Shown: piece by piece, positions 26,856-56,100 of the stretch
How positions within the stretch are numbered: the first letter of the stretch is position 1
Layout of the letters: each line of letters begins with the position of its first letter
Assembly: GCA_002307275.1 (NCBI GenBank)
Contig: DBTX01000078.1
Coordinates: 42-64,041, forward strand
Reading direction: 5' to 3'
DNA length: 64,000 nt
Source of the DNA: Hungateiclostridiaceae bacterium UBA1305
Lineage (GTDB): Bacteria; Bacillota; Clostridia; Acetivibrionales; DTU013
Position numbers and translations under genes: made by a program
The notes under the pieces: generated by a model
What the model saw: only the letters and a program-made list of their open reading frames with translations
Told to the model about the DNA's origin: nothing
Database searches by the model: none

Positions 26856-26856
26856 A

Positions 26857-41835: not shown

Positions 41836-44800
41836 CTATCGGAACAGCCCTCTTCGCTGTCTTTCAACCCTCAGTCTGTCTTCAAGCCTTTTGTATACCT
41901 GCTCTGCCAGTTTTGCAACATCGGGAATACTTCCCTGTACCTCGGATTTATTATAAATAATGGAATCTTCTATATTTTCGTTGATAACCTTAAATTTCGG
42001 ACTGCTCTCCTCAGCCTTACCGCCTGTTCCGGAGCTTACATCCCCGCTGCCGGTATGGCTTCCATCTTCAGCGCCGCTCCCGTTTCTTAAAACCAATTCG
42101 GACTGCAGCACTTCATCATATGCTTCATTATCAGCCGCGCCCGATGCATGAATACCGGATTCTTTCAAGAGCATTCCGCCATATTGCTCCGGCAATGGAA
42201 TTTTCTCTGTCCCCGGGATTCTTACTCCTGTTTTCTTCCATGCCCAGGTTATCAATTGCTTTATCCTCATTACTCCAAATGCATCGGAATATATGCCCCG
42301 GCTTCCCATGCCGCTCCGCTGCGGACCGCTTCCGCCCTCTTCCTTCTGTCGTGCTCTTTCTTCCCTGTATATCCGTTCCGTATCAGTAAAGTTCTCATCT
42401 GAATTCTTATATTTGTAAAATGATTTGTCCTCTGTCACACCGATTTTGTTGAATTTGCCGGATCTGTCCAAATATTTGCTTACCTGTTCATCAATCTCTC
42501 CGTCTGCATTCATGTCAATCTGCCCATTTATATGCTGTCCGTCCGCAAGCCTTCCGGTATGCCTGTTTCCCATGTCGGCACTTGCTTTGTACTCCGCTCT
42601 CCGTGCCGGACTCCTTGCACCCATGCCGGATTCTCTTAAAAGCATTTCGCCGTATTGCTGCAGAAATGGAATTTCCCCTGTTTCCAGGCTTTCCCTTCCC
42701 GTTTTCTTCCATATTCGGTCTATCCATTCATATACTTTCTTTAATCCAAACACACCGGCTTTCATGCCGATTCCGATAAAGCCTCCATCTGCCGCGAAGC
42801 TGTTCCTGTGATTCATGACTGTTCCCGTTCCGGAACCGTCTGGCAGTCCATCTAACTGCCTGTCTGCATATCCGTATGTTTGACCGTTTGTCTGCCTGTC
42901 CGTATGTCCGTATAACTGACCGTCCGTCTGGCTGCTTGTCTGCCTGTCTATATATCTGTATGCCTGACCATTTGTCTGGCTGCTTGTCTGCCTGTCCGTA
43001 TTTCCGTACAACTGACCATTTGTCTGGCTGCTTGTCTGCCTGTCTATATATCTGTATGCCTGACCATTTGTCTGGCTGCTTGTCTGCCTGTCCGTATTTC
43101 CGTACAACTGACCATTTGTCTGGCTGCCAGTCTGCCTGTCCGTATGTCCGTATAACTGAACGTCTGCCTGACTGTCTGTACGTCCACCGGCCTGTCGCCT
43201 TCCGGTATCGGCACTTGCTCTGCGCTCCGCATTCCGGGCCATGCTCCATGCACCAATAGTAGATTCTTTTAAAAGTATTTCACCAAATTGCTGCGATAAT
43301 GGAATTCCCTCTGCTCCAGGGGTTTTTTCCCATGTTTTCCTCCATACCCGGTTTATCAATTCATTTACTTTCTTTATTCCAAATGCTCCGGCTTTCATTC
43401 CAATTCCGGCAAAGCCTTCCTCTGGCGCAAAACGGTTCCTATAATCCATGACCGCTCCCGTACCGGAACCGGTTGTCTGCCTGTCCGCATATCCGTATAG
43501 CTGAATGTCTGCCCGACTGCCTATACGTCCGTATACCTGAGTGTCTGTCCAGCTGTCTGCACGTCCGTATAACTGAACACCCGCCCGGCTGCCTGTACGT
43601 CCATCGGCCTGTCTCCCTCCGATGTCGGCATCTGCTCCATACGCTGCTCTCTGTGCCCTATCCCTTATGTCAATACCTGATTTTGTAAAAAGCACTTTAC
43701 GATATTGCTCCGGTAATAAAAACCTCTCCGTTTCCGGGATTTTTTCTCCTGTTTTCTTCCAGGCCCGGGTTATCCATTCCTTTACTTTGCTTAATCCAAA
43801 TACCCCGGCTTCCACTCCGATTCCGGCATATTCATTCTCTGCCGCGAAACGGTTCCTGTAATCCATGACCGCTCCCGTACCGGAACCGTCCGTCTGACCG
43901 GCTGCATATCCATATAACCGAACATCTGTCCGGCTGTCCGCACGCCCGTGCAGCTGAACGTCCGTCTGACCGGCTGCACGCCCGTTGGCCTGCCGTCGCT
44001 GAATATCCCCACTTGTTCTGTCCTCCGGCCTTTGTACCGGATCTCTTGCAGCACTGCCGGATTCTTTAAAAGGCACTTCATGATATTGCTTCGGCAATGA
44101 AAATCCCTTTGTTTCCGGGATTTTTCCTTTCGTTTTCTTCCATGCCCAGGTTATCAATTCCTTCACTTTGCTTAATCCAAATGTCCCGGCTTCCACTCCG
44201 ATTCCGGCGTATTCATTCTCTGCCGCAAAACGATTCCTATAATACATGACTGCTCCCGTACCGGAACCGTCTGTCTGCCTGTCCGCATATCCATATACCC
44301 GCACATCTGCCCGGCTGTCCGCGCGCCCGTGTAGCTGTACATCTGCCCGGGTTATCAATTCCTTTACTTTTTCTGCTCCAAATACCCCGGAATTTGTACT
44401 CTGGCTTCCCCTGCCGCTCCATTGAAGCCTCATGCCGCCTTCCGTCTTCCGACTTCCGCCTTCTTCCCTTCGCCCCCGGTATTCCTCTCTTCGCGTAAGA
44501 AGCTCGCGAATAAGCAACTCAACTCTGCTGGCGGTTTTTTTACTTTCCCTGTCTGAAAGTGTGTTTTCATCTTCCTGTGGATTTTTTCCGATAACCGGTA
44601 CCGTACCTTGTGATTTATTGAGCAGAATATCCGGCACTTCTCTTTTAAGGATGCTTTCGGGTGCTGCAAAGCTGTTCATCAGCTTCACTGCCTGTCCGCG
44701 ATTGAGTGAACCGGGCATAATAGCGCGCAGCAGAAGGTTGATATTTATAATAGTTTCATTATGCTCATTGTGAATATGCACGGCCCCGCGGCCTTTGCCA

Positions 44801-44964
44801 TATTCCGCCCTGTCCTGTGCAGGCTCCAGAAAGTCAAGCTCCGCCGCCCGGCTATGAAAATCTTCACTGGAAAATCCATAGAAAGAAAATATTTTTGCAT
44901 CAAAGGTTCGGTCAAGCATTCCGATATTTCTTTTTATGCTTCTTATGTCCAGTATTGAAATCAT
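41836..44964 (-). CDS. Tape-measure-like protein (Afp14/Pvc14 position), 1042 aa, built largely from nested internal repeats
   Basis: It lies between the second tube gene and the LysM gene. The conserved-looking C-terminus is DVAKLAEQVYKRLEDRLRVERQRRGLF. About 5-6 copies of a ~130-aa module (GSGTGAVM(D/Y)YRNRFAAENEYAGIGVEAG.FGLSKVKE.IT.AWKKT...) are present. A 16-aa micro-repeat (YGNTDRQTSSQTNGQA) is also present. Confidence 0.65.
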   Translation of the reverse strand: MISILDIRSIKRNIGMLDRTFDAKIFSFYGFSSEDFHSRAAELDFLEPAQDRAEYGKGRGAVHIHNEHNETIININLLLRAIMPGSLNRGQAVKLMNSFAAPESILKREVPDILLNKSQGTVPVIGKNPQEDENTLSDRESKKTASRVELLIRELLTRREEYRGRREEGGSRKTEGGMRLQWSGRGSQSTNSGVFGAEKVKELITRADVQLHGRADSRADVRVYGYADRQTDGSGTGAVMYYRNRFAAENEYAGIGVEAGTFGLSKVKELITWAWKKTKGKIPETKGFSLPKQYHEVPFKESGSAARDPVQRPEDRTSGDIQRRQANGRAAGQTDVQLHGRADSRTDVRLYGYAAGQTDGSGTGAVMDYRNRFAAENEYAGIGVEAGVFGLSKVKEWITRAWKKTGEKIPETERFLLPEQYRKVLFTKSGIDIRDRAQRAAYGADADIGGRQADGRTGSRAGVQLYGRADSWTDTQVYGRIGSRADIQLYGYADRQTTGSGTGAVMDYRNRFAPEEGFAGIGMKAGAFGIKKVNELINRVWRKTWEKTPGAEGIPLSQQFGEILLKESTIGAWSMARNAERRASADTGRRQAGGRTDSQADVQLYGHTDRQTGSQTNGQLYGNTDRQTSSQTNGQAYRYIDRQTSSQTNGQLYGNTDRQTSSQTNGQAYRYIDRQTSSQTDGQLYGHTDRQTNGQTYGYADRQLDGLPDGSGTGTVMNHRNSFAADGGFIGIGMKAGVFGLKKVYEWIDRIWKKTGRESLETGEIPFLQQYGEMLLRESGMGARSPARRAEYKASADMGNRHTGRLADGQHINGQIDMNADGEIDEQVSKYLDRSGKFNKIGVTEDKSFYKYKNSDENFTDTERIYREERARQKEEGGSGPQRSGMGSRGIYSDAFGVMRIKQLITWAWKKTGVRIPGTEKIPLPEQYGGMLLKESGIHASGAADNEAYDEVLQSELVLRNGSGAEDGSHTGSGDVSSGTGGKAEESSPKFKVINENIEDSIIYNKSEVQGSIPDVAKLAEQVYKRLEDRLRVERQRRGLFR
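42860..43200 (-). repeat. 48-nt in-frame tandem repeat array; core is a 96-nt unit present twice with no mismatch
   Basis: 42928-43023 and 43024-43119 are identical by my reading (CTGGCTGCTTGTCTGCCTGTCTATATATCTGTATGCCTGACCATTTGT + CTGGCTGCTTGTCTGCCTGTCCGTATTTCCGTACAACTGACCATTTGT). Degenerate copies flank both sides. Confidence 0.9.
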
Positions 44965-44975
44965 TTTTTACACCT

Positions 44976-45425
44976 TTAAAAAAAAATACCCATCAGGGCT
45001 CCAATCTTATCCACAGATATCCCTGAATGGGCCACTTCAAGGCTTTCTATAAGAACCTTGTTTCCCAGCGCGTCAAGATCGCCTATTTCCCATTTAAGCA
45101 GTACAATCGGTTCTCCGAAGGAATAGCTCGACACGGTTTCACCCTTTGCATCCCTGACATTGATCGTTCCTGAAAAAGGAAGTATTTTCCCTACCAGAAG
45201 CGGCGTAAGCATGGATAACATGGATGATTCGCACAGTCCGTGTTCAAAAACCAGCTTGTGCGGCGTAGTATACTGCTTCTGCAGAACATGGACATAGTCA
45301 TTGACGCCGCCTTCCTTTAATACGTCAACCTCTATATCCCTTGATATGTTTTTTATTTTGGAAAAGCTCATCATAATCGGCCCTATTGACACCGAAAACC
45401 GGTTCCCAACCACAGGTCTTGCCAT
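44976..45425 (-). CDS. Second tube-family protein (T4 gp19-like; Afp5/Pvc5-like)
   Basis: MARPVVGNRFSVSIGPIMMSFSKIKNISRDIEVDVLKEGG... follows the same fold pattern as the 141-aa tube protein. AAGGGAGAG RBS is present. Confidence 0.7.
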   Translation of the reverse strand: MARPVVGNRFSVSIGPIMMSFSKIKNISRDIEVDVLKEGGVNDYVHVLQKQYTTPHKLVFEHGLCESSMLSMLTPLLVGKILPFSGTINVRDAKGETVSSYSFGEPIVLLKWEIGDLDALGNKVLIESLEVAHSGISVDKIGALMGIFF

Positions 45426-45489: not shown

Positions 45490-45684
45490 TCAAAAACCCT
45501 CAAAGACATTCTTTGGAGCATTATTGAGCTTTTTATTAATAGAAGATATTTCACCGCACCACCTTTTTCTTTCTCTGTGAGGCATATTCATTACCTCATT
45601 GTTACTCCAGTGGAAATAGTAGGCGATAAAAGCTATTTCCTTATATAGCTGCTCTTCAGGATATACCTTTATGCCTGATCCGTA
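45490..45684 (-). CDS. Start-less 64-codon ORF in the -1 frame (YGSGIKVYPEEQLYKEIAFIAYYFHWSNNEVMNMPHRERKRWCGEISSINKKLNNAPKNVFEGF); predicted C-terminal extension made by -1 frameshifting from the upstream gene
   Basis: Translated by hand; it is not in the ORF track. No ATG/GTG/TTG precedes the conserved-looking YPEEQLY...HW...ER.RW segment. That segment resembles a small protein family I recall from CIS loci (DUF6760-like; number from memory). The frame is open from just upstream of the slippery site to the TGA at 45490-45492. Confidence 0.55.
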   Translation of the reverse strand, partial: YGSGIKVYPEEQLYKEIAFIAYYFHWSNNEVMNMPHRERKRWCGEISSINKKLNNAPKNVFEGF

Positions 45685-46037
45685 AAATTTACGGCCGCCT
45701 CAAAACCATGCCCGCATTTAGGACACATCACACTTATCGTGGGCGCTTCCACTTGATTTATTCTTTGATACATCTCCTGCAAAAATGCCAGGTCCGCAGT
45801 AAATAATTTCTCAATAACTTTAGTATCTATTGCTTTTATTTCACCAAGCTTTGTTATTACCCTGGCAAGAAGAATAATTGTAAGGTAGCCAGGATTCTGC
45901 TGCACCCGCGGATCCCTCATAGGGAGTATTTCATCCGCCGCCGTTGCCAGCCGCATGATGCCATGCCTGTGCAGCGTGCCGCTTTCGTCCACATAGCCTT
46001 TGGGTAATTCAAAGGTGAATTCTGTCTCAAATGCCAT
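45669..46037 (-). CDS. Tail-assembly-chaperone-like protein (122 aa) with C-terminal zinc-ribbon-like CPKCGH motif; zero-frame product of the candidate frameshift pair
   Basis: MAFETEFTFELPKGYVDESGTLHRHGIMRLATAADEILPMRDPRVQQNPGYLTIILLARVITKLG.... GGGGG RBS precedes the ATG at 46037. Its position after sheath and tube, and before the tape measure, mirrors P2 E and lambda G. Confidence 0.55.
   Translation of the reverse strand: MAFETEFTFELPKGYVDESGTLHRHGIMRLATAADEILPMRDPRVQQNPGYLTIILLARVITKLGEIKAIDTKVIEKLFTADLAFLQEMYQRINQVEAPTISVMCPKCGHGFEAAVNFTDQA
45684..45690 (-). other. Candidate -1 programmed ribosomal frameshift heptamer A_AAT_TTT
   Basis: The minus-strand mRNA reads GTA AAT TTT ACG GAT CAG GCA TAA. 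The heptamer fits X_XXY_YYZ in the zero frame, five codons before the stop. A weak stem (TCAGG/CCTGA) starts 5 nt downstream. Confidence 0.5.
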
Positions 46038-46148: not shown

Positions 46149-46574
46149 TTACGCTGTGCGCGTCATTCCCTCATGGGCCAGCTCCAGGCTTTCAATGGCA
46201 ACCTCTGAAGCTGTTGCATTGAAATCGGGCGCAGTATATTTAGCCGGCCATGCGTTGATCAGCTGCCATGATGCGGTAGCATCCCCCTTGGGACCTAATA
46301 CTGTAATCGTTACAGTCTTTCGTTCAATATCCCCTTCACTTATTCCCTGAAGCCATTCGTACAACTCCATCGAGCTTGAAACGCCCCACTTAAGCGTTAT
46401 GTTTCCGTACTTGGTCAATCCAGGTAATTTAACAGGCGTAGATACGGGAGAATCCCCTTCCCTGTATTCAATTACATCAACATTGGCATCAAATCCGCTT
46501 ATTTCGGAAAATCCCGCCTGATCAACGCCTGTTATCTCAAGGCGGAATTTAAACTTTGTATATGGATAATCCAT
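46149..46574 (-). CDS. CIS inner tube protein (T4 gp19-like / TIGR02241-type; Afp1/Pvc1-like)
   Basis: YTKFKFRLEITGVDQAGFSEISGFDANVDVIEYREG...GNITLKWG is the conserved phage-tail-region tube block. 141 aa. AAAGGGGATGG RBS is present. Confidence 0.85.
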   Translation of the reverse strand: MDYPYTKFKFRLEITGVDQAGFSEISGFDANVDVIEYREGDSPVSTPVKLPGLTKYGNITLKWGVSSSMELYEWLQGISEGDIERKTVTITVLGPKGDATASWQLINAWPAKYTAPDFNATASEVAIESLELAHEGMTRTA

Positions 46575-46638: not shown

Positions 46639-48384
46639 TCATCCCTGCGATTCATTTACCTTCTGGGTAATCCTGAATATGACGAATTCAGCAGGTTTTA
46701 CAGGTGCCACACCTATAACGCATATCAGTCTTCCGTTGTCGATATCATCCTGAGTCATGGTGGTTCTTCCGATGTCTACAAAAAAGGCTTCATCTGCGGT
46801 ACCTCCGGCAAGAGCGCCATTCCTCCACAGATTTGTCAGGAATACGTCTATGGTGCGTTTTACTCTCGACCAAAGCATCACTTCATTAGGCTCAAATACT
46901 ACCCAATTGGTATTTGACTTTATGGACTCTTCAATAAAGATGAAAAGCCTTCTCACGTTTACATATTTCCAATTAGACTCGGAAGAACATGTTCTTGCGC
47001 CCCATACGCGTATTCCCTGTCCCGGGAACACCCTTATAAGGTTCACGCCCTGCGGGTTCAGGATATCCTGCTCTCCTTTATTGTACAGGCAGTCAAGTCC
47101 TGTGGATCCGCGGACCACCTCATTGGCAGGCGCTTTCTGAACGCCTCTTTCCGTATCGGAACGGGCATATATGCCTGCAATTGAAGCTGACGGCGGAATG
47201 AATGTACTCTTCTTGTCCAATGGATCGAATACTTCAAGCCATGGATGATAAAGTGCCGCATAATTACTGTCAAACATGGATCTGTGAGCAATAACCTCAT
47301 CAACTTTTTTCTTATCTCTTGGAATATCCAGGAGCGCAAAGCGGCTGCCAAGATTTTCGCAATGTGCCACTAATGTGATCTGGACGTTTGGATCAGTAAC
47401 CCCCGGAACAGCCATTATGCTTACCTGTGAATTTTCAAGAAATGCCTGTATTCCGCTTCTTTCACCCGGGCCATTGTCAGCGCCGATAAATACGGAAGCG
47501 TCGACGTTCATGCTTTGGCCGTTGCTGCCGCCTGCAAGTGTGATTACAAAGGAATCGGCCGTACCGCCGGATATCTGCTCAAAAGGCCTGATTATTTCTT
47601 TCATACCGGAGTCCGCTTTATAAGCAATTGAAACAATCTCCGATTTAGCCATCCTCTTCTCAATATAGTTGGCTGCCGCCGGATTGAAGGACACATTCTC
47701 ATAAGCCTCATCGATGTCCTCATATTTCACGGTAACACTGATCTCGCAGGTTGAGATTGTTTTTGTGGGAAGAATTTTCTGGTCAATAACATCAATATCA
47801 AAAGCTTTTTCAAATTGAATAAAATCATCCTGCACTTTTATAATTTTGTTCAGTTTGGTTTGTTCTCCATCCGTATAGGAAACAATATCCCCTTCATAAA
47901 AGCCTGCGGTGTTTTTTACAATGTACCTGTTCCCGGTATATGAATCCTCTTTAATATCAAGTATCTGTGTCTTGGCTTTTGATGCGTCAGTGATTATTAC
48001 TCTGATTTTATTCCCCCAAACTCCGGGGTTTTTCGCGCAAATGTAAGACAAGCCGGCAGATTTTTCACTATCTCCGTCATAAGCTGCAGCCTTCGCGTCA
48101 GATGGAGCAACTCTCATAATAAAGCATCTGGCCCCGCCATTGATAAAAAACTGTTCTATACAGATGGGAAGATAAGAATAGTCGCCATATTCAACCTTTG
48201 AAAGATACCCTCCGAATTTCCTTTTGAAATCAGCAAAGCTTGTAACAAGTTCCGGCACGCCTTTCACTGCGCCTCTCGCAGTCATCCCTACAAAGCCTGC
48301 CGTACTGGTGCTTACACCTTCCATCGGCCTGCTTCCCTGATCAAATTCTTCGACATAGACTCCCGGCGATAAATACTCTGACAT
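46639..48384 (-). CDS. Contractile sheath protein (phage tail sheath family; Afp2-4/Pvc2-4-like), single copy
   Basis: MSEYLSPGVYVEEFDQGSRPMEGVSTSTAGFVGMTARG is the canonical sheath N-terminus. YAALYHPWLEVFDP and GVNLIRVFPGQGIRVWGART are sheath C-terminal blocks. Confidence 0.9.
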   Translation of the reverse strand: MSEYLSPGVYVEEFDQGSRPMEGVSTSTAGFVGMTARGAVKGVPELVTSFADFKRKFGGYLSKVEYGDYSYLPICIEQFFINGGARCFIMRVAPSDAKAAAYDGDSEKSAGLSYICAKNPGVWGNKIRVIITDASKAKTQILDIKEDSYTGNRYIVKNTAGFYEGDIVSYTDGEQTKLNKIIKVQDDFIQFEKAFDIDVIDQKILPTKTISTCEISVTVKYEDIDEAYENVSFNPAAANYIEKRMAKSEIVSIAYKADSGMKEIIRPFEQISGGTADSFVITLAGGSNGQSMNVDASVFIGADNGPGERSGIQAFLENSQVSIMAVPGVTDPNVQITLVAHCENLGSRFALLDIPRDKKKVDEVIAHRSMFDSNYAALYHPWLEVFDPLDKKSTFIPPSASIAGIYARSDTERGVQKAPANEVVRGSTGLDCLYNKGEQDILNPQGVNLIRVFPGQGIRVWGARTCSSESNWKYVNVRRLFIFIEESIKSNTNWVVFEPNEVMLWSRVKRTIDVFLTNLWRNGALAGGTADEAFFVDIGRTTMTQDDIDNGRLICVIGVAPVKPAEFVIFRITQKVNESQG

Positions 48385-48691: not shown

Positions 48692-49432
48692 GTGATAAAT
48701 CTAGTCATTGCAGACAATGATTCCTCTTCACAGGAGAATCTCAGAAATTTACTGAAGAATTATGAAAACATTCAAGTTGTAGGCAGTTATCAAAATCCAG
48801 CGTCCGTTTTGGAAGAAATAAAAAGTCTCAATCCTCATGTTCTTATTACCGATATTTCCATGCCGGAAATGGATGGACTTGAGCTTGCACAAAAGGTAAC
48901 CGCCCTTTTACCCAATATTTATGTCGTGTTCCTGACCGAATATGAGAAATTTGCCCTCAATGCATTTGAGCTTGGCGTCTTTGATTATATTTTGAAGCCT
49001 GCAACACAGGAACGTTTCAATAAGCTGATCCAGCGCATCACTCTGGACATGGCAGCCAGAAAAAGAGGTGACGCCGGTATTGCCATCTCTAAAAGAAATC
49101 TATTTAAAGACTATATTGCAGTCAGTAAAGGCGAATCCATCATAGTAATAAACAAGGCAGAAATACTTTACTGCTGCGCAAGCAATAAAAAAACACACAT
49201 TTACGTGAATGACGGCTGCTTTGAATGCCGGTATACGCTGGAACATCTTGAAGAAATACTGAAGGCGAGCTTTTTGAGATGTCATAGGAGTTATCTGGTA
49301 AATATGCAGTTCATCCGTGAGATTTCGCCGCTGTTCAATCAAACCTACCTCATCAGGCTGAAGAATTCCCGTGCGGAAATACCTGTCAGCAGGAATTATG
49401 CCATAAGGATTAAGGAATGTCTACACTTTTAA
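48692..49432 (+). CDS. LytTR-family response regulator (receiver + LytTR DNA-binding domain), no adjacent kinase
   Basis: The receiver has ADND...LITDISMPEMDG...LTEY. The LytTR domain has FLRCHRSYLVNMQFIREI...IPVSRNY. It starts at GTG with a GGGGAG RBS and is divergent from the CIS sheath operon. Confidence 0.85.
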   Translation: MINLVIADNDSSSQENLRNLLKNYENIQVVGSYQNPASVLEEIKSLNPHVLITDISMPEMDGLELAQKVTALLPNIYVVFLTEYEKFALNAFELGVFDYILKPATQERFNKLIQRITLDMAARKRGDAGIAISKRNLFKDYIAVSKGESIIVINKAEILYCCASNKKTHIYVNDGCFECRYTLEHLEEILKASFLRCHRSYLVNMQFIREISPLFNQTYLIRLKNSRAEIPVSRNYAIRIKECLHF

Positions 49433-52400
49433 TGCATTCGCAACAGCCGCTTTTTTTCTTACGCTAAGGATTGAAAACAGTGAAATGACACCTATAAAGA
49501 ATATTCCTATCAGTCCTATCCCTTTGAAAATTCCCATTCCGATAACCATTCCGTAAATAATCGGCCCCAGGACCTGGCCCAGGTTTTCGACCAGTCCATA
49601 ATATCCGAGAGACTTTCCCTGGCCTAACAAATCCGCCGCGTTTATAGAAGAAAAGTAATTTACTCTTAATGTTATTCCGAAGCTCTCTGAAATACCGATC
49701 ATAAAAATTGCAATAAAAGCAGAGGTCAATGTACCCTGTACTGCAAATTGCAGCAGTGCCGCCGCCAGAATCAACGCTGCCAGCAGCATTGAAAGCTTTG
49801 CTCCTATTTTTTTCGAAATATATACGGTAAGTGAGGGTCCCAAGTAGATGATACTCAGGCCATATAGCAAAAATGCACGGCTGATGCCTGACGTTGACAT
49901 CTTTTGACCTTCTGCAAACAAAGGGAAAAAATAATCGATGAACATTGTGCAAATCACTGTAGGAATAAGCATCAACAGGAAAAAAGTGCTGACTGCAGGC
50001 GTTGTAAAAAACTTAAACAGGCTTTTTATGGAACCCTGGCTATTTCCTTCCTTTTGTACTGTGCAAGTATTATTCTTTACAGTCTTTATTGACAGAAAAA
50101 CACAAATCATCACCAAAGCAGTTGAAAAAAAGTAGACCTTTGACATTCCAAACTTTTCTGCAAGCAAACCGCCAACAATAAGTCCCGCGTTCAATCCGGC
50201 AAAGCCTCCTGAATTCAGCGCCGAGATACCTTCATTGCGTTCCTCCTCCGAGGCCGGGATAACCACATAGTTTTGCATTGATATAAAGGTCAGTCCCATT
50301 CCTGCACCTGCAACCGCCCTTGCAAAAATGAACATCGCAGGGCTGCCGGCAAAGCCGGATATCAGCTGTCCGCCAAAGAGCAGCACAAGGCCTGATATGA
50401 GTGTAGGCCTGCATCCCTTTTTATCATTCACGTACCCGCCTATGACAGATGAAACCGCAATCAGCAGCGCTTCCACAGATATGGGAAGCGCAAGCACGAC
50501 ATTTTCCGGCAAACCCAAAATCGGTCGATACAGCTGCTTCATAAGAATAGGAACAAAAGAACCTGACATAAAGCAGGCAAGATAAATTAGAAAGCATAAA
50601 GGGCGCATTGTCAATGTATCCAGGCTTGTTATCATTTTACTGTCAGCTTCGTCCGGCAATCTCTCCCGCCGCTTTCTCAACAGATCGGCGAATATGGTTA
50701 TCTCAAGCATTATAAAAATAAGTACAACCAGCAATGTCGCAGTTTTCAGCAGAACTTCATTTTTCAGCCTGCTATTCTCCTGATTGAAGCCATATGAATC
50801 AGTGCCGACCTCAAGTACTCCCACAACCTTCCCGGAAGAATTGAGGACAGGTGTCATTCCATACATCCAGTCACCTTCGGCATCGCTGCTTTTTGTGGTT
50901 ATCATGATTTTTTCATTGAATACTCTAAGATAATCCTGTTCCGAGCCATCCTCGGCAAGAGGATAAAAAGGACACTTACTGTCATCATAATACATAACGG
51001 CATAGAGCTTGTTGTCAACAACCGTATACAGCGCACCATAAAACCCTTCATTCCATGTATCCTGATTATAGTTAAAAGAGGCATGTAACTGCTCACGTAT
51101 CAATTTGTAATTTTCATCCATAAAATGCTCGGGTTTTTTTATTTTTTCAAAAGTATCTCCGTCAATATTTTTTGACGCAAGAAACATCGTCTGGCTGATA
51201 TGATTGAAAATATCCGATTCGTAGCGGCTCTGAAATTTATCGAATATCGTATTGGATACAAGAAGCGTCGCGATGACAATGGCAAAAATAACAAACAGGC
51301 TCTGCATCAAGACGGCTGATGGCCTGCCTTTAAAAATATTTACAACTAGATACCATGCTATAAATGCAAGTATCCCAGCCAGTAAAACAATCTGTATCCA
51401 CTGCAAAAGCCTCAATAGGTAACCGCTGACAGGTAAAAGACCCCTGCTGCCGTAAAAGCCGACGATTGACATATTATTGCAGCTCACTACGTTCCCATTG
51501 CTTACTAAAACTGCATTACCATTCGCAGCCACGGACACGGTGTAAAAATTCACTCCATCACTGTCATATCCCTGTTCCTGCAATATTTTATCCGAAATGA
51601 GCGTCCTGACATTGCCTGAAGGCTCAATACACCTTATACTGCGCTGTAAAATATCAGAGAAGTATACGGTATCCCTGTCATACACCTCTGCCTTCCAGGG
51701 TATTGAGCTTACAAAATCAGCGGCTTTATTATCTCCTGTATAAACAAGAGAGAGATCTCCTGTTTCCACTGCCTTATAGATCTCTCCCCTTTTGGTTGTA
51801 AAAATGCTTGCCGGCGGGTCATACGCTGTGCCAAAGTCAACAATCATGCTTGCTGCATCGGCAAATGCAACATGAATGATGTCCTTGGATTTTTTTGTAT
51901 CTAGTGCTACCCTGGTAAGAACAAAGGAATCCTTTTTTTTGTTATACAGGTACAAATTTTCTTTATAAACAGAGATAGAACATATATTACCCGTTCTGAT
52001 CGGACGGTCCTCTTCCGCATATTCAACAGAGTAGACGATATCCTTGAATTTGCCATTGGCGGTATACCTGATAATCTCTTCCTTTTCAACGTTCTGGCCA
52101 TTCTCGTCCAACAAATTATCCAAGACGTAAAGATTGCCATAACTGTCTACAGCAAGCTCCTGGGCGGAGAAAAATCCAGGGCTGCCTCCCGTCTCCCCAT
52201 TAAGGACAAAAATTACCTTTCCGGCAGCATCAAGCTTCATGATGCGCTTCGTGCCGTCATCAATAAGATATATGTTGGAGGCGGCATCGCTTGTAGCGAA
52301 AACAGGCTGCTTAAAGTTCATGAACCGGTTAAATGGATTTTCCGAATATACCGGCAGATTATGCAGAATTGAATAGCACAATATACCGGCAAGAATAATT

Positions 52401-52438
52401 GATGTAAAAAAAAGCGGCTTTTTCCTGTGAATCAACAA
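49421..52438 (-). CDS. Fusion protein: N-terminal TM + NHL/beta-propeller-like extracytoplasmic domain + TM pair + PDC/Cache-like domain + C-terminal MFS transporter domain
   Basis: 1005 aa. NIYLIDDGTKRIMKLDAAGKVIFV and GNLYVLDN are NHL-like blades. WMYGMTPVLNSSGKVVGVLEVGTD is a Cache-like motif. The C-terminal ~400 aa has ~12 TM segments with GGYVNDKKGCRPTLISG (MFS loop 2-3 motif). It starts at TTG, overlapping the GNAT stop. Confidence 0.65.
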   Translation of the reverse strand: MLIHRKKPLFFTSIILAGILCYSILHNLPVYSENPFNRFMNFKQPVFATSDAASNIYLIDDGTKRIMKLDAAGKVIFVLNGETGGSPGFFSAQELAVDSYGNLYVLDNLLDENGQNVEKEEIIRYTANGKFKDIVYSVEYAEEDRPIRTGNICSISVYKENLYLYNKKKDSFVLTRVALDTKKSKDIIHVAFADAASMIVDFGTAYDPPASIFTTKRGEIYKAVETGDLSLVYTGDNKAADFVSSIPWKAEVYDRDTVYFSDILQRSIRCIEPSGNVRTLISDKILQEQGYDSDGVNFYTVSVAANGNAVLVSNGNVVSCNNMSIVGFYGSRGLLPVSGYLLRLLQWIQIVLLAGILAFIAWYLVVNIFKGRPSAVLMQSLFVIFAIVIATLLVSNTIFDKFQSRYESDIFNHISQTMFLASKNIDGDTFEKIKKPEHFMDENYKLIREQLHASFNYNQDTWNEGFYGALYTVVDNKLYAVMYYDDSKCPFYPLAEDGSEQDYLRVFNEKIMITTKSSDAEGDWMYGMTPVLNSSGKVVGVLEVGTDSYGFNQENSRLKNEVLLKTATLLVVLIFIMLEITIFADLLRKRRERLPDEADSKMITSLDTLTMRPLCFLIYLACFMSGSFVPILMKQLYRPILGLPENVVLALPISVEALLIAVSSVIGGYVNDKKGCRPTLISGLVLLFGGQLISGFAGSPAMFIFARAVAGAGMGLTFISMQNYVVIPASEEERNEGISALNSGGFAGLNAGLIVGGLLAEKFGMSKVYFFSTALVMICVFLSIKTVKNNTCTVQKEGNSQGSIKSLFKFFTTPAVSTFFLLMLIPTVICTMFIDYFFPLFAEGQKMSTSGISRAFLLYGLSIIYLGPSLTVYISKKIGAKLSMLLAALILAAALLQFAVQGTLTSAFIAIFMIGISESFGITLRVNYFSSINAADLLGQGKSLGYYGLVENLGQVLGPIIYGMVIGMGIFKGIGLIGIFFIGVISLFSILSVRKKAAVANALKV

Positions 52439-53001
52439 TATGACCCACTTCCCTTCGGATTTTGGGCTGTTATGTTATTAGCCTTTCCATCCTTCACAAA
52501 GCTCTTCACGTACCAGACCAATCCCTCACCGGTAAAATAATAGTCCGGGCAATGGCCTATCTGATAAAAGCCCAGCTCGGAAAGAAGCTTTCTTACAGGC
52601 AAATAACATGGCATATCACAGGTTTCTATTAGCATATAACGGGCGCCAAGGGTACATAAAAAATCAAATACTTTATAATGCAATGCCCTTGCAATTCCAT
52701 TTTTCCTGTAATTTCTATGAATCACGCAATAGTCTCCGATATAACCTCCCGATTTTTGGCAGTTTTCTTTTACACCAAGTGCTCCTATTATTTGCCCGGT
52801 CTCATTTTTGACACACCAGTAGTAGGAGTTTTCCTCTCTGAGGCTCTCATATATGCATAATTCCATATGCTCCAATTCTCCCGGAGTGAAATTCCGATCG
52901 TCAAATGATGCAGCCGAACGTAAAAAATTTGTCACTTCCTTTGCTTCTCTCTCTGATTCAACAAGATTCATCGAATATTGAATATCATTAACCGTCTTCA
53001 T
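52432..53001 (-). CDS. GNAT-family N-acetyltransferase
   Basis: IGDYCVIHRNYRKNGIARALHYKVFDFL is the acetyl-CoA-binding R/Q-x-x-G-x-G/A-like motif A. GGAGGGG RBS lies 6-7 nt before the ATG at 53001. Confidence 0.75.
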   Translation of the reverse strand: MKTVNDIQYSMNLVESEREAKEVTNFLRSAASFDDRNFTPGELEHMELCIYESLREENSYYWCVKNETGQIIGALGVKENCQKSGGYIGDYCVIHRNYRKNGIARALHYKVFDFLCTLGARYMLIETCDMPCYLPVRKLLSELGFYQIGHCPDYYFTGEGLVWYVKSFVKDGKANNITAQNPKGSGSYC

Positions 53002-53180
53002 TTGCAGCCCCTCCATATTGAATAATTCCTAGTCCCGGTATGAAAAACAAATAATTCGAGCTATTGCGCAAAAAACAACAAATTCAGACATAAACTTATT
53101 ATATCGAATGTACTGTAGTCAACACTTTCCGCCTCAAATGCATAAATCCCGTGCCGAATGGTATAAAAGCAGGGATGCTT

Positions 53181-56100
53181 TTATGATATTCTCAAGTCCC
53201 TGGCCCATATGGCCGCCTGTGCTCTTCTGTTCACTCCCAGCTTGCCGTAAATGCCAAGTACATGTGTCTTTATTGTGTTTACCGTCAGCCCTGTGCTTTG
53301 TGCAATCTCTCCATTTGATTTACCGGTCGCCATGTGCCTGAGAATTTCCATTTCTCTCGTTGTCAACTGTTCAATAACCTTCGCATTCGTTGAGATTCTT
53401 GCTGCTTCAGCTTCATTTTCCATAAGATTCTGAAGCTTTCTCATAAGGAGCACCTGACAGGACAACACTTTTATTGCTTCAATGCCTTCTTCTGAAAACT
53501 CTTCCGCATTCATGCTTTTTTCGAGATAAAGCGCACCTGAAAAAATCTCCTGGACGATGAGGGGAAGGCATAATGCAGAAGCCGTATTGTTTCTTATAAT
53601 ATAAGAGTCGGTAAGAAAAACATCCCTGAGACGTTCGTCACTAAGAGACGCGATTTCATAAGTCCGCGCAGTATAGCGGATGAGCTTTTTGGGAATACCC
53701 TCATATTCTTCAAGAGGTATGTCAAGCGACTTTACAGGCAGTTCGATGCCTTCTTTGCACGCTTCTATATAAAGCTCTTCGTTTTTTTCGATCAGAATAA
53801 ATCCCTTGTCGGCATTAGATGTTTGTACAATAATATCAAGAAATTTCTCCAGAAGGATTTTCATATCTGTCTCACGTGACAGGCTTTTAATTTCCTCCAG
53901 TATCTTTGCCGAATCAAGCCTTTCCGTGTACTGTTTTTCAGCCTCGGGCAAATTTCCGCCGCAGGCCGGATTCTTTGCTTCCTGTCGGTTAATCAGATGC
54001 TCGTATCTCTTCTTCAGTGCTTTTTCTTTTCCCTCCGCTCCCCATAGCCTGTACTTTTTGCAGGCGTCTGCCAGATATGTGGCTGCAATTCTGTCCTTGC
54101 CCGAATCAGCATAATACCTGCCTGCCAGTTCACATATGATTGCCTCGTTTTGCAAAAAGCCGTTTTGTTCAGCCGACTTAGCTGCCTCATGATATAAATC
54201 CGCCACTCTTTCAGATTTCCCATTGATACGTGCATACTCGGCAGTCAACAGCAGATACTTGTGCCTGAAATTCTCCGGGCAGTTGTCCTGCCACTGTTTA
54301 AATCTGGAAATATTATGCTTTAAAACACTCCTGTACTTTCTTTTTTTGCTGTCCGGCAGTTGATGATAATTTGCGGTGATAATAAGAGAATGGTAGAACA
54401 AATGCTCCGCATATTGAATAAGACCCAGAACAGCATCCATATTTTTCTGTGCTTTTTCCAGCAGGTCAAACACCTCATCACTTTTTTCAGAAAGGTAATA
54501 TGCCTGCATTTTAAGTAAAAAATACATCATCATGTCATTACTGTTTTTTCCCATTTGAAGCTTAATATTCTCTTGCTCAAAGCATTCCAGGTTACCTGAC
54601 ATGATACCTGAAACGATCTTGTTCAGGCACTGCAAATACTCGGCAATATCCTGGCACTTCAGCCTTTTGCCCAATTCATAAGCACTTTGTATCTGACTGC
54701 GCAGCTCTTCCAGGTTCATGCCCATACAATAATTAAATTCTGTCTGAATAGCCGCCGAGCTGACTGCAAATATATACTCACCCGCCTCAATACCATATAG
54801 GATTCCTTTGCTGAAATACTCCTGGCTGCTGCTCCCATGTGCGATCCAGTGATTGATAAAGGTGGCATCCACAAAATTGACAATGCATCGGATATAAACA
54901 TCGTCATATCTCTCGCACAGTGCAGCTGCCGCTTTTTTAAGCAAACAGGATTTTTTATAGTTGCCCAAAACGCTGCCGGCAATTATTCCGTAGCCTGCAT
55001 AGCCGTAAGGCGCATATTTGGTATTGCCGTGCTTTATAGATAAAATAGCAATTTTCAGCGCGATGACGGCAAACAAATCAGGATTTATGAGATTCGAAGC
55101 AAGCGCCATGGAAATAAGCAGTTCAAGCACTTTATCCGTTTCCGGCGAATGGTTTTCCTTCATATTGAGTATGTTTTTAACTCTGCTTTTTCTAAAATAC
55201 CACATGGATTTTATTGTCAATATAGTAATCAGGGTTTTGCCCGGTCGCTCCGGTATATTTTCGCCAAGATTCTTTAGTGCTTCAATACCGGTTGAAATAG
55301 TTGCTTCATAATCTCCAACCGATGAAAACAGGTTTGCTTTTGCTCCGAGGATCTTCGCAGTTTCCATACCGGTTTTTGCCTTTGCCAGTAAAATGTCAAA
55401 TATATGATAGGATTCATTTATGCTTCCACACAAAAACAAGGTATTTGCATACCCTAGATTCAGTTCAGAAGATAAGCCGTAATCCGACCTCCATGAATTT
55501 TCCGTCAGAAGCAGCCTTCCTGATTCGAAGTACTTTAATGCCGAAGTGAATGCTACAGCCGCCATTGCTTTTTTACCTGCCGCAAGATTATACCTTGCAA
55601 GGCTGATACGCTCCGAACAGTCTGTTACCAACTCAAGCGCATTGTTAAAATGAGCCATGATGCTTAGAATTGTTTTGCCTAAATCACTTTCATCCGCACT
55701 GTTCAATAAAAGCCTGCCAATTTTAAAATCCAATTCTTTTCTTTCACTTTCTGTTATCTGTGCATAAACAGCCTGTTGAATCCTGTCATGCAGGAATTCA
55801 AAGCGCGGACCCGCATCCTTGTTGTCCTGAATATCAGCTGTCCGCAGAGGCTCTTCCGGGTCTTCCTCAGGAAGCAGCAACCCTTCTGCAAGTGCCGGCG
55901 AAAGTTTGTCCATGGTCTTCTCAAGGGTACATTGGGACACAATGGCCAGCATTTCCAGCGTAAAGGAATTTCCGATAACCGAAGCCAGTCTTAATGCATT
56001 TAATGTTTCAACAGGCAGCTTACTCAGCTTATTTATTACTATTTCAACAATATCCTCGGGAATTGTCATGCCGGATATATGTTCAATATCCCATTCCCAC

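What the first reader, a model, noticed from the sequence alone, without database searches (positions are those of the whole stretch)
45490..46037. Candidate programmed -1 frameshift (A_AAT_TTT) joining the post-tube chaperone-like gene to a start-less 64-codon ORF, analogous to lambda G/GT and P2 E/E+E'
Seen: between the 122-aa gene (46037..45669) and the second tube gene there is a 64-codon open frame that the ORF track misses. It has no ATG/GTG/TTG before its most protein-like segment (YPEEQLYKEIAFIAYYFHWSNNEVMNMPHRERKRWCGEI). It lies in the -1 frame relative to the upstream gene and overlaps that gene's last five codons.

Exactly there the mRNA reads GTA AAT TTT ACG, i.e. a zero-frame X_XXY_YYZ heptamer (45690..45684). 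Slippage gives ...AAVNF-YGSGIKVYPEEQ..., a 182-aa fusion alongside the 122-aa zero-frame product.

Established: tailed phages conserve a -1 frameshift in the tail-assembly-chaperone pair located between the tube and tape-measure genes (lambda G/GT, P2 E/E+E'). The gene order here (sheath, tube, this pair, tube-2, tape measure) matches P2 FI-FII-E/E'-T.

Inference: this CIS retains the phage chaperone frameshift. I am not aware of it being part of standard CIS annotation, where the small ORF is usually called as an independent gene or missed.
Basis: partly seen in the sequence, partly recalled or inferred. Interest (0 to 1): 0.85.

Follow-up and report, generated by a model that had tools for sequence, protein, structure and literature searches.

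The report
Frameshifted tail-chaperone gene in injection system
A phage-tail-like injection system in a Clostridia-type bacterium very probably makes a long and a short form of its tail-assembly chaperone by a programmed -1 ribosomal slip, the phage lambda G/GT trick, and this explains a conserved small reading frame (DUF6760) that gene finders miss or mis-start.

Summary
The 122-aa gene (46037..45669, minus strand) ends GTA AAT TTT ACG GAT CAG GCA TAA. A start-less -1 frame is open over 45699..45490 and matches Pfam DUF6760 (E 2.5e-21).

Evidence for a programmed -1 frameshift:
- In 178 related loci from about eight phyla, DUF6760 lies in the -1 frame in 177.
- 131 of 172 have no ATG/GTG/TTG near the domain start.
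- 168 of 172 have an in-phase T_TTT or G_GGG in the last 10 sense codons, against 14% of control windows.
- In the window's Bacillota clade the Phe codon is TTT in 80/80. The preceding codon ends in T in 80/80 although its amino acid varies.
- The full A_AAT_TTT heptamer is kept in 42 of 43 Asn-Phe loci.
- In-frame chaperone-DUF6760 fusions occupy the same position in other phyla, and one cyanobacterial lineage encodes the short and long forms as two genes.

No stimulatory RNA structure was found. The rival, weak initiation at the ATA overlapping the stop codon, is not excluded. It is more plausible for the G_GGG class in other phyla. I found no description of this frameshift in the CIS literature I could search. 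Verdict: a new member of a known kind, of moderate interest.

The parts
45669..46037 (-). Zero-frame gene for a tail-assembly-chaperone-like protein, 122 aa (the short product, analogous to lambda gpG or P2 gpE). It has a C-terminal CPKC motif. Phe118 is invariant.
   Evidence: phrog_508 'tail assembly chaperone' E 2.5e-8. Pfam Gp41_Mu E 0.002, below the curated cut-off. About 8000 homologues, mostly 119-126 aa, several named 'phage tail assembly protein' by NCBI.
45684..45690 (-). Slippery heptamer A_AAT_TTT (zero frame GTA AAT TTT), the proposed site of tandem -1 tRNA slippage (Asn AAU to AAA, Phe UUU to UUU).
   Evidence: TTT at codon 118 in 80/80 loci, and T at the third base of codon 117 in 80/80 although the amino acid varies. 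The codon before AAT TTT ends in A in 42/43 loci. H_HH.U_UU.Y heptamers are among the most efficient in E. coli (PMC4066793).
45672..45699 (-). Overlap window in which the frame change must occur. It runs from the first -1-frame codon after the -1-frame TGA (45702..45700) to the last base before the zero-frame TAA.
   Evidence: The only slip-prone in-phase motif in these nine zero-frame codons is A_AAT_TTT.
45490..45684 (-). -1-frame extension of 64 codons plus TGA: YGSGIKVYPEEQLYKEIAFIAYYFHWSNNEVMNMPHRERKRWCGEISSINKKLNNAPKNVFEGF. It consists of a Gly-rich linker followed by the DUF6760 domain, which is the 'T-like' part of the 182-aa fusion.
   Evidence: Pfam PF20546 DUF6760 E 2.5e-21, 76 bits against a cut-off of 27. 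No ATG/GTG/TTG before EVMNM. No gene is called here in the two public assemblies that carry this exact DNA.
45670..45672 (-). ATA codon in the -1 frame that overlaps the TAA stop (ATAA). It occupies the position of the ATG/GTG start of stand-alone DUF6760 genes in other lineages and is the candidate initiator under the rival explanation.
   Evidence: NCBI's annotation uses such an ATA as the start in Crassaminicella and Nostoc.
45695..45701 (-). Shine-Dalgarno-like GAGGCGG, 4-11 nt upstream of the heptamer. It is a possible upstream stimulator of the kind seen in dnaX. This is inferred only.
   Evidence: A peak of predicted anti-SD pairing at this position in about 48% of 80 loci, and -7.0 kcal/mol in the window. 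It is confounded with the conserved Glu-Val codons.
46639..48384 (-). Sheath gene (581 aa), the first gene of the structural operon.
   Evidence: Phage_sheath_1 and Phage_sheath_1C.
46149..46574 (-). Inner tube gene (141 aa).
   Evidence: Phage_T4_gp19 E 6e-46. TIGR02241.
44976..45425 (-). Second tube-family gene (149 aa), immediately downstream of the -1 ORF.
   Evidence: Phage_T4_gp19 E 3e-13.
41836..44964 (-). Gene for a 1042-aa protein in the tape-measure position. It is the presumed client of the chaperone.
   Evidence: Position only. There is no significant Pfam or PHROG hit. A positional analogue, 'Tme', is described for Streptomyces davawensis CIS (PMC11126660).
29286..41823 (-). Rest of the injection-system locus: tube initiator (CIS_tube), hub, spike (Phage_base_V), gp25, two Baseplate_J proteins, a P2-I-like protein, a 312-aa protein and an AAA+ ATPase with a winged-helix domain.

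Best explanation
The 122-aa gene and the start-less DUF6760 frame are one recoded gene pair of a contractile injection system (CIS).

Proposed mechanism:
- Most ribosomes translate the zero frame to TAA (45671..45669) and release a 122-aa tail-assembly-chaperone-like protein.
- A minority slip back one nucleotide on A_AAT_TTT (45690..45684). The tRNA-Asn and tRNA-Phe re-pair on AAA and UUU.
- These ribosomes continue in the -1 frame to TGA (45492..45490).
- The product is a 182-aa fusion: chaperone residues 1-118, a short Gly-rich linker, then the three-helix DUF6760 domain.

Inferred function, by analogy with lambda gpG/gpGT and P2 gpE/gpE+E' (established for those phages, inferred here):
- The shared N-terminal domain would coat the large protein in the tape-measure position (44964..41836).
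- The DUF6760 extension would recruit tube subunits.
- The slip frequency would set the short:long ratio.

What is shown: the sequence, the frame relationship, the lack of a start codon, nucleotide-level conservation of the slip site, and the existence of in-frame fusions elsewhere. What is inferred: that slippage actually occurs, its efficiency, the exact junction, and the binding partners.
For: 1. Anatomy in the window: a -1 ORF with no ATG/GTG/TTG, and one in-phase heptamer in a 9-codon overlap.
2. The -1 ORF is a genuine protein domain, DUF6760, E 2.5e-21.
3. Frame conservation: -1 frame in 81/81 loci and 177/178 across Bacillota, Pseudomonadota, Cyanobacteriota, Actinomycetota, haloarchaea and metagenomes.
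4. No canonical start within 8 codons of the domain start in 131/172 loci. The codon overlapping the stop is GTA, CTA or TTA (not initiators) in 70/172.
5. Synonymous-site constraint. Phe118 is TTT in 80/80, against 57% TTT at other Phe codons of the same genes. Codon 117 ends in T in 80/80 while its amino acid is Ser, Asp, Asn, Ala or Pro; elsewhere in these genes T-ending use is 12-59% depending on the amino acid.
6. The codon before AAT TTT is CTA, GTA, ATA or TTA in 42/43 loci.
7. An in-phase T_TTT or G_GGG lies within the last 10 sense codons in 168/172 loci, against 14% of control 10-codon windows. The four exceptions have either an ATGA start or another classical heptamer (A_AAG_GGA, G_GGA_AAC).
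8. Natural fusions. In-frame chaperone-DUF6760 proteins of 150-167 aa sit at the same syntenic position in Ca. Uabimicrobium. In two cyanobacterial loci (L182, L183) a short chaperone gene (hhalign probability 100% to the family for the L183 copy) is followed by a paralogous chaperone-DUF6760 gene.
9. A_AA.U_UU.U belongs to the H_HH.U_UU.Y class of efficient E. coli heptamers (PMC4066793).
10. The upstream protein matches phage tail assembly chaperones (phrog_508, E 2.5e-8).
11. The junction DNA is identical in two other public assemblies.
Against: - No protein or ribosome-profiling evidence exists.
- No unusually stable or conserved downstream RNA structure was found: z = -0.46 in the window, no clear stability dip across 80 loci, and no Rfam match.
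- The window's -1 frame has an ATA exactly where stand-alone DUF6760 genes have their ATG/GTG overlapping the stop. The stop-to-domain spacing is the same (8 nt) in 129/172 loci. That regularity would also suit termination-reinitiation.
- About a quarter of loci have a canonical start there, and one locus (L155) has a separate gene. DUF6760 can therefore probably work as a free protein.
- G_GGG in other phyla could be a Shine-Dalgarno sequence. In E. coli, G_GG.G plus a downstream -1-frame AUA gave initiation rather than frameshifting (PMC4066793).
- The fusion model is confident only for the chaperone domain.
Confidence: 0.78

Rival explanations
1. DUF6760 is made as a separate protein of about 60 aa. 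After terminating at TAA, or after binding internally, ribosomes initiate at the near-cognate ATA (45672..45670) that overlaps the stop. This would be the non-canonical counterpart of the ATGA/GTGA coupling seen in other lineages.
For: - Stand-alone DUF6760 proteins start M-x-x-Y-P, exactly at the position of the window's ATA.
- The spacing from the stop to the Tyr codon is 8 nt in 129/172 loci. The overlapping codon is ATA in 59 and ATG/GTG/TTG in 32.
- NCBI's annotation uses an ATA start in Nostoc and Crassaminicella.
- In E. coli, G_GG.G can act as an SD for a -1-frame AUA (PMC4066793).
- L155 and the haloarchaeal locus show that a free DUF6760 exists.
Against: - This does not explain the invariant T_TTT (80/80), or A_AAT_TTT (42/43), at synonymous positions 4-9 codons upstream of the stop.
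- 70/172 loci have GTA, CTA or TTA at that position, and these cannot initiate.
- Within the 80 genome loci (Bacillota) the stop lies 2-7 codons before the Tyr-Pro motif, so the spacing is not fixed there.
- The window has no good SD before the ATA; there is no anti-SD pairing of -5 kcal/mol or better between the slip site and +38.
- ATA initiation is very inefficient (general knowledge).
- In-frame fusions and the two-gene cyanobacterial arrangement show that the fused form is used.
Confidence: 0.13
2. The frame change is made at the RNA level. RNA polymerase slips on the A3T4 or T-run and produces transcripts with one base fewer or two more, which read through into DUF6760.
For: The conserved element is a homopolymer run. 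Some relatives have 6-7 consecutive T (GAT TTT TTG, GAT TTT TTT).
Against: - The window has only four T.
- Other phyla have five G.
- L167 and L170 have non-homopolymeric classical heptamers.
- Transcriptional slippage normally needs runs of about 8-9 or more (general knowledge; AAAAAAA and UUUUUUU are discussed in PMC4066793).
- The strict codon phase of the run fits tRNA re-pairing.
Confidence: 0.04
3. There is no recoding. The arrangement is a sequencing or assembly indel or a decaying pseudogene, and DUF6760 is either normally in frame or is not expressed here.
For: A few database proteins are in-frame fusions with irregular junctions (P0003, P0009, P0027, P0056).
Against: - The same -1 arrangement is seen in 177/178 loci from many isolate genomes.
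- The junction is identical in two other public assemblies.
- The DUF6760 sequence is strongly conserved.
Confidence: 0.01

Closest known systems
Lambda G/GT and the conserved -1 frameshift of tail assembly chaperone genes in long-tailed phages (Xu, Hendrix and Duda 2004, cited from memory; their 2014 paper on gpG/gpGT chaperone interactions is reference 37 of the preprint read)
   Same: - Two overlapping ORFs lie next to the tube gene and upstream of the protein in the tape-measure position.
- The downstream ORF is in the -1 frame and has no start.
- A slippery site is conserved in the overlap.
- The products are expected to share an N-terminus.
- No strong stimulatory structure is evident, as is reported for lambda (from memory).
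   Different: - The heptamer differs: A_AAT_TTT or T_TTT here, G_GGA_AAG in lambda.
- The extension domain is DUF6760. It gave no tblastn match in 50,697 phage genomes, and neither did the chaperone.
- A second tube-family gene sits between the pair and the large protein.
- The host element is a CIS with an AAA+ ATPase, not a virus.
P2 gpE / gpE+E' and Mu gp41/gp42 (myovirus chaperone frameshifts)
   Same: Contractile-tail context with the order sheath, tube, chaperone pair, tape measure. There is weak sequence similarity to Pfam Gp41_Mu (E 0.002 for the window protein, best 5.5e-4 among 20 family members).
   Different: The Gp41_Mu score is below Pfam's cut-off. This protein has a C-terminal CxxC segment. 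The slip motif and the extension domain are different.
Bacillus subtilis PBSX/skin element chaperone XkdN/YqbN
   Same: It is the chaperone of a Bacillota phage-tail-like element. YqbN (PDB 3klu) was the only tail-related structure near the top of the fold search (TM 0.49 normalised to the target, probability 0.38).
   Different: The structural match is not significant (E 1.4). No sequence match was obtained.
Translationally coupled overlapping genes (ATGA/GTGA), as annotated for DUF6760 in Burkholderia, Streptomyces and Halogeometricum
   Same: The same gene pair, the same -1 phase, and the same stop-to-domain spacing.
   Different: The window has ATA in place of ATG or GTG and no SD. It carries a conserved slippery heptamer upstream instead.
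T4-like phages, whose tail assembly chaperones are reported to be made without frameshifting (Vladimirov, Gautam and Davidson 2022, Virology; seen only as a reference title)
   Same: It is a precedent for the short and long chaperone forms being made by another route. This parallels the cyanobacterial two-gene arrangement and the in-frame fusions found here.
   Different: That paper was not read, so the mechanism there was not compared.

Membership tests
Programmed -1 frameshift of tail assembly chaperone genes (lambda G/GT type) | Two overlapping ORFs located between the tube (major tail) gene and the tape-measure gene | tested here: met
   The order is sheath, tube, 122-aa gene, -1 ORF, second tube, 1042-aa protein, tube initiator, hub, spike. 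An extra tube paralogue intervenes. The 1042-aa protein is called a tape measure by position only.
Programmed -1 frameshift of tail assembly chaperone genes (lambda G/GT type) | Downstream ORF in the -1 frame, without its own start codon or SD | tested here: met
   Window: no ATG/GTG/TTG before EVMNM and no SD-like pairing before the domain. Family: -1 frame in 177/178 loci and no canonical start in 131/172. About a quarter of loci do have ATG, GTG or TTG.
Programmed -1 frameshift of tail assembly chaperone genes (lambda G/GT type) | Slippery sequence in the overlap, conserved among relatives | tested here: met
   T_TTT in 80/80 loci with synonymous-site constraint. A_AAT_TTT in 42/43. An in-phase homopolymer tetramer in 168/172 loci against 14% of controls.
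Programmed -1 frameshift of tail assembly chaperone genes (lambda G/GT type) | Upstream ORF is a tail assembly chaperone | tested here: met
   phrog_508 'tail assembly chaperone' E 2.5e-8. Pfam Gp41_Mu is below its cut-off. The PDB fold search was not significant. No function has been tested.
Programmed -1 frameshift of tail assembly chaperone genes (lambda G/GT type) | Two proteins with a common N-terminus are made in a fixed ratio, and both are needed for tail assembly | not testable with these tools
   There is only indirect support: in-frame fusions and a two-gene short/long arrangement in other lineages.
Pfam DUF6760 (PF20546) | Score above the family's gathering threshold | tested here: met
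   76 bits against a cut-off of 27, E 2.5e-21, profile positions 2-53 of 89.
Contractile injection system (eCIS/CIS, lineage with the large protein upstream of the baseplate genes) | Sheath, tube, tube initiator, spike, gp25, baseplate J and an AAA+ ATPase, with no capsid or packaging genes | tested here: met
   No capsid or terminase was found among the ORFs scanned, but not every ORF of the window was scanned.
Contractile injection system (eCIS/CIS) | Cap/terminator protein with a Pvc16_N (DUF4255) domain | tested here: inconclusive
   No Pfam hit for the 312-, 597-, 201- or 195-aa ORFs. Related loci L181 and L182 do have Pvc16_N.
Translationally coupled overlapping gene pair (ATGA type) | Canonical start codon of the downstream gene overlapping the upstream stop | tested here: not met
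   The window has ATAA.
Transcriptional slippage site | Long homopolymeric A or T run (about 8-9 or more) | tested here: not met
   There are only three A followed by four T.

The most novel reading that the evidence does not exclude
The chaperone-DUF6760 -1 frameshift may be ancestral and nearly universal in a large CIS lineage, one that spans at least Bacillota, Pseudomonadota, Cyanobacteriota, Actinomycetota and Planctomycetota.

- T_TTT and G_GGG would be alternative slip sites, with G_GGG possibly doubling as a Shine-Dalgarno sequence.
- DUF6760 would be a CIS-specific 'T domain' that recruits tube subunits to the chaperone-coated tape-measure-like protein.
- Thousands of genome annotations would then be wrong: missed ORFs, ATA starts, truncated starts or spurious upstream starts.
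- The slip rate would be a tunable determinant of particle assembly, which matters for engineered CIS delivery systems.
Probability: 0.45. Interest if true: 0.65.

Novelty: new member of a known kind. Interest (0 to 1): 0.55.

Why it matters
- It assigns a likely role to DUF6760, a family of unknown function: the frameshift-encoded C-terminal module of the CIS tail assembly chaperone.
- It shows that a large CIS lineage has kept the phage G/GT logic in several interchangeable forms: frameshift, coupled start, in-frame fusion and duplicated genes.
- The CIS papers I could search describe tape measures, ATPases and caps but no chaperone pair or frameshift. The finding therefore bears on how these particles are assembled and sized, and on heterologous expression of engineered CIS, where a lost or mis-annotated slip site could silently remove an assembly factor.
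- It exposes a systematic annotation problem.

Tried and rejected
- **Downstream stimulatory RNA structure.** The window fold has z = -0.46. A sliding 45-nt MFE across 80 loci shows no marked dip after the slip site. No Rfam family matches. I found no stimulator.
- **Upstream SD-like stimulator.** There is a peak of anti-SD pairing upstream of the slip site in about half the loci. It coincides with conserved Glu-Val codons, so I left it as a possibility only.
- **Phage relatives.** tblastn of DUF6760 and of the chaperone against 50,697 phage genomes gave no match. Only 14 of 2.9 million IMG/VR contigs carry DUF6760. Phage homology is visible only at profile level.
- **Irregular in-frame fusions.** P0003, P0009, P0027 and P0056 have irregular junctions and come from single metagenome contigs. 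I did not use them as evidence.
- **Structure.** The accepted alignment gave a model that is confident only for residues 1-115. The PDB fold search returned nothing significant.
- **NCBIfam.** No hit for either protein.
- **Literature.** Searches for DUF6760, eCIS plus frameshift, CIS plus tail assembly chaperone, and Afp6 found no description of this frameshift.
- **Paenibacillus megaplasmid record.** It carried too little annotation to be informative.
- **Fixed reinitiation codon.** I considered this and set it aside for the 80 genome loci (Bacillota), because the stop lies 2-7 codons before the Tyr-Pro motif there.
Full report
**1. The observation**

On the minus strand, the ORF 46037..45669 encodes a 122-aa protein. 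It ends ...CAT GGT TTT GAG GCG GCC GTA AAT TTT ACG GAT CAG GCA TAA.

- The -1 frame has a TGA at 45702..45700. It is then open for 69 codons to a TGA at 45492..45490.
- Its translation is GGRKFYGSGIKVYPEEQLYKEIAFIAYYFHWSNNEVMNMPHRERKRWCGEISSINKKLNNAPKNVFEGF. There is no ATG, GTG or TTG before the internal EVMNM.
- A -1 slip there gives ...AAVNF-YGSGIK... and a 182-aa product.
- The frame change can only occur within nine zero-frame codons (45699..45672), and the heptamer is the only slip-prone in-phase motif there.

One such heptamer in nine codons has a chance expectation of about 3-4%. The window by itself proves little. The case rests on comparison with related loci.

**2. What the two reading frames encode**

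- The -1 peptide matches Pfam DUF6760 (PF20546) at E 2.5e-21, 76 bits against a cut-off of 27. It is a real, conserved protein domain.
- The 122-aa protein matches PHROG family phrog_508, 'tail assembly chaperone', at E 2.5e-8. It matches Pfam Gp41_Mu weakly, below the cut-off.
- Many of its roughly 8000 database relatives are 119-126 aa long, and NCBI names several of them 'phage tail assembly protein'.

The neighbours on the same strand are, in order:

1. sheath;
2. tube;
3. this gene pair;
4. a second tube-family gene;
5. a 1042-aa protein without family hits, in the tape-measure position;
6. a CIS_tube initiator, hub, spike and gp25;
7. two Baseplate_J proteins and a P2-I-like protein;
8. 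an AAA+ ATPase with a winged-helix domain.

No capsid or packaging genes were seen among the ORFs scanned. This is a contractile injection system (CIS) locus in a Clostridia-type bacterium. The closest genome loci are a Bacillota MAG and Anaerobacterium chartisolvens.

**3. Conservation of the arrangement**

A scan of one genome per species returned 80 loci, all from Bacillota. DUF6760 lies in the -1 frame of the chaperone gene in 81 of 81 loci, counting the window. Most have no start codon in that frame upstream of the domain.

I then added:
- plasmid and megaplasmid loci from Rhizobium, Burkholderia, Nostoc, Rhodococcus, Streptomyces and Halogeometricum;
- 14 IMG/VR contigs;
- 80 metagenome loci.

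The result is 177 of 178 loci in the -1 frame. The exception, L155, has a separate gene with its own ATG after a 57-nt spacer. In 131 of 172 analysable loci there is no ATG, GTG or TTG within eight codons upstream of the conserved Tyr. The codon that overlaps the chaperone's stop is GTA, CTA or TTA in 70 loci, and these cannot initiate.

**4. Conservation of the slip site at the nucleotide level**

- In the 80 genome loci with an aligned Phe118, that codon is TTT in 80/80. Other Phe codons in the same genes are TTT only 57% of the time.
- The preceding codon ends in T in 80/80, although it encodes Ser (TCT), Asp, Asn, Ala or Pro. Elsewhere in these genes TCT is 12% of Ser codons.
- Where residues 117-118 are Asn-Phe, as in the window, the codon before them is CTA, GTA, ATA or TTA in 42 of 43 loci. 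That is three different amino acids, always with an A-ending and mostly rare codon.
- Selection therefore acts on the RNA sequence A_AAU_UUU, and on U_UUU_UUR in sister clades, not on the protein.
- Over all loci, an in-phase T_TTT or G_GGG lies within the last ten sense codons of the chaperone gene in 168/172 (124/128 after removing near-duplicates). The figure for control ten-codon windows elsewhere in the same genes is 14-15%.
- The four exceptions are instructive. Two have a proper ATGA start (L085, L123). Two carry other classical heptamers, A_AAG_GGA (L167) and G_GGA_AAC (L170).
- In E. coli, H_HH.U_UU.Y heptamers are among the most efficient, and U_UU.U is among the best tetramers (PMC4066793).

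**5. Evidence that a fused polypeptide is used**

The exhaustive representative search and a follow-up profile search found natural in-frame chaperone-DUF6760 proteins of 150-167 aa in several sources.

- In Candidatus Uabimicrobium the fusion sits exactly where the window has the pair: AAA+ ATPase, Pvc16_N, sheath, tube, FUSION, second tube, 571-aa protein, CIS_tube, hub, spike.
- In two cyanobacterial loci (L182, L183), a short chaperone gene is followed by a paralogous chaperone-DUF6760 gene. For the L183 copy (131 aa), hhalign probability to the family is 100% (E 2.6e-38) and identity to the downstream fusion protein is 34%.
- That lineage encodes the short and long forms as two genes. This is what the lambda G/GT logic predicts if both forms are needed.

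**6. What argues the other way**

- I found no stimulatory RNA element. The window fold downstream of the heptamer is unremarkable (z = -0.46). There is no consistent stability dip in 80 loci and no Rfam match. This is not fatal, because lambda G/GT is reported to need no such structure (from memory).
- An SD-like GAGG(T/C)G lies upstream of the slip site in about half of the loci, and as GAGGCGG in the window. It might act as in dnaX, but it coincides with conserved Glu-Val codons.
- The serious rival is independent initiation. Stand-alone DUF6760 proteins begin M-x-x-Y-P. The window has ATA at that position, overlapping the TAA (ATAA). The stop-to-Tyr spacing is 8 nt in 129/172 loci.
- NCBI's pipeline annotates such ATA codons as starts in Nostoc and Crassaminicella.
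- In other phyla the conserved motif is CTG GGG GAA (N3) stop. This G_GGG is a perfect re-pairing site, and it is kept in 10/10 loci in which no initiator codon is available. But Sharma et al. showed that G_GG.G can serve as an SD for a -1-frame AUA in E. coli. For that class I cannot decide between the two mechanisms, and both may operate.
- For the window's class, the rival does not explain the synonymous-site conservation of A_AAT_TTT well upstream of the stop.
- Transcriptional slippage is unlikely on a four-T run.
- An assembly error is excluded by the family-wide pattern and by identical DNA in two other public assemblies.

**7. How current annotation treats the ORF**

- It is missed in the assemblies that carry this exact DNA.
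- In Paenibacillus humicola it is called from a fortuitous ATG inside the chaperone gene (83 aa).
- In Crassaminicella and Nostoc it is called from ATA.
- In Rhodococcus it is truncated.
- In Burkholderia and Streptomyces it is called with ATGA or GTGA overlaps.
- The word-indexed protein search found only three called DUF6760 proteins, against roughly 8000 chaperones.

**8. Comparison with what is known**

The mechanism is the well-known tail-assembly-chaperone frameshift of long-tailed phages (lambda G/GT, P2 E/E+E', Mu gp41/42).

Differences here:
- The host element is a CIS, not a virus.
- The extension domain, DUF6760, gave no tblastn match in 50,697 phage genomes, and neither did the chaperone.
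- The slip motifs are different.
- Alternative genetic solutions coexist within one family.

The CIS literature I could search does not mention a chaperone pair or a frameshift. Afp6 is listed only as a TetR-like gene of unknown role that is absent from most of lineage II. I therefore class the finding as a new member of a known kind.

**9. Structure**

An AlphaFold model of the conceptual 182-aa fusion was built from an alignment that is shallow over the extension. It is confident for residues 1-115 (an alpha/beta chaperone domain). It predicts a disordered linker (116-128) and three helices for DUF6760 at low confidence. The PDB fold search gave nothing significant. The only tail-related entry near the top was B. 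subtilis YqbN (3klu, TM 0.49 normalised to the target, probability 0.38).

**10. Verdict**

My confidence that the window's pair is expressed through a -1 ribosomal frameshift at A_AAT_TTT is 0.78. The product, its abundance and its partners have not been tested.

Noticed in passing
L083 (Nostoc plasmid) 1210-1380; L187 (Crassaminicella profunda) 1866-2048: RefSeq/GenBank annotate the DUF6760 gene with an ATA start codon that overlaps the upstream stop (ATAG). This looks like a homology-driven workaround. If the frameshift is real, the start is wrong.
   Followed up: partly
L182 3638-4462; L183 and L184 3609-4456 (cyanobacterial contigs): A short chaperone gene (113-131 aa) is followed, with a 4-nt overlap in L183 and L184, by a paralogous in-frame chaperone-DUF6760 gene (151-153 aa). 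This is a duplicated-gene version of the short/long chaperone pair. These loci also have three tube paralogues.
   Followed up: partly
Proteins P0002 (251 aa), P0004 (211 aa), P0011 (248 aa), P0278 and P0279 (244 aa, Gallionella): These are tandem in-frame duplications of the chaperone domain in one polypeptide, without DUF6760. Their genomic context was not examined.
   Followed up: no
Loci L081-L180, last 2-3 codons of the chaperone gene: Outside the window's clade the chaperone ends with a strikingly conserved (C/G/A)TG GGG GA(A/G) (NNN) stop ('LGE[AVS]*'). The third base before GGG is always G, although the amino acid there varies (L, V, M, P, Q, T, S, A, W). It could be a slip site, an SD, or both.
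   Followed up: partly
window 41836-44964 (-): The 1042-aa protein in the tape-measure position has no significant Pfam or PHROG hit. By position it resembles the tape-measure-related effector Tme described for the Streptomyces davawensis CIS group (PMC11126660).
   Followed up: no
window 45669-45725 (-), residues 105-118: The chaperone has an invariant C-P-x-C followed by the invariant Phe118, but no second Cys pair. The natural in-frame fusions lack this whole segment, so it may belong to the recoding region rather than to the chaperone fold.
   Followed up: no
window 45493-45684 (-): The DUF6760 peptide weakly matches phrog_10636 (unknown function, E 2.6e-4). That family is 44 residues long and may consist of truncated calls of the same domain in elements classed as viral.
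   Followed up: no
window 49421-52438 (-), 52432-53016 (-), 53181-56966 (-), 57151-58359 (-): Upstream of the CIS operon lie four genes: a 1005-aa protein with an MFS transporter in its C-terminal part, a GNAT acetyltransferase, a 1261-aa STAND-ATPase/TPR/LuxR-type regulator, and a GHKL sensor kinase. The large regulator is a candidate controller of the CIS.
   Followed up: no
window 26322-29267 and 31490-32428 (-): Four ORFs at the distal end of the locus (597, 312, 201 and 195 aa) have no Pfam hit. No Pvc16_N/DUF4255 cap protein was recognised, although related loci have one next to the ATPase.
   Followed up: partly
L099 and L100 (IMG/VR contigs): These are divergent DUF6760 loci in which the chaperone's stop lies 16 nt beyond the expected domain start, and the junction peptide does not resemble the others. 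They were not resolved.
   Followed up: no
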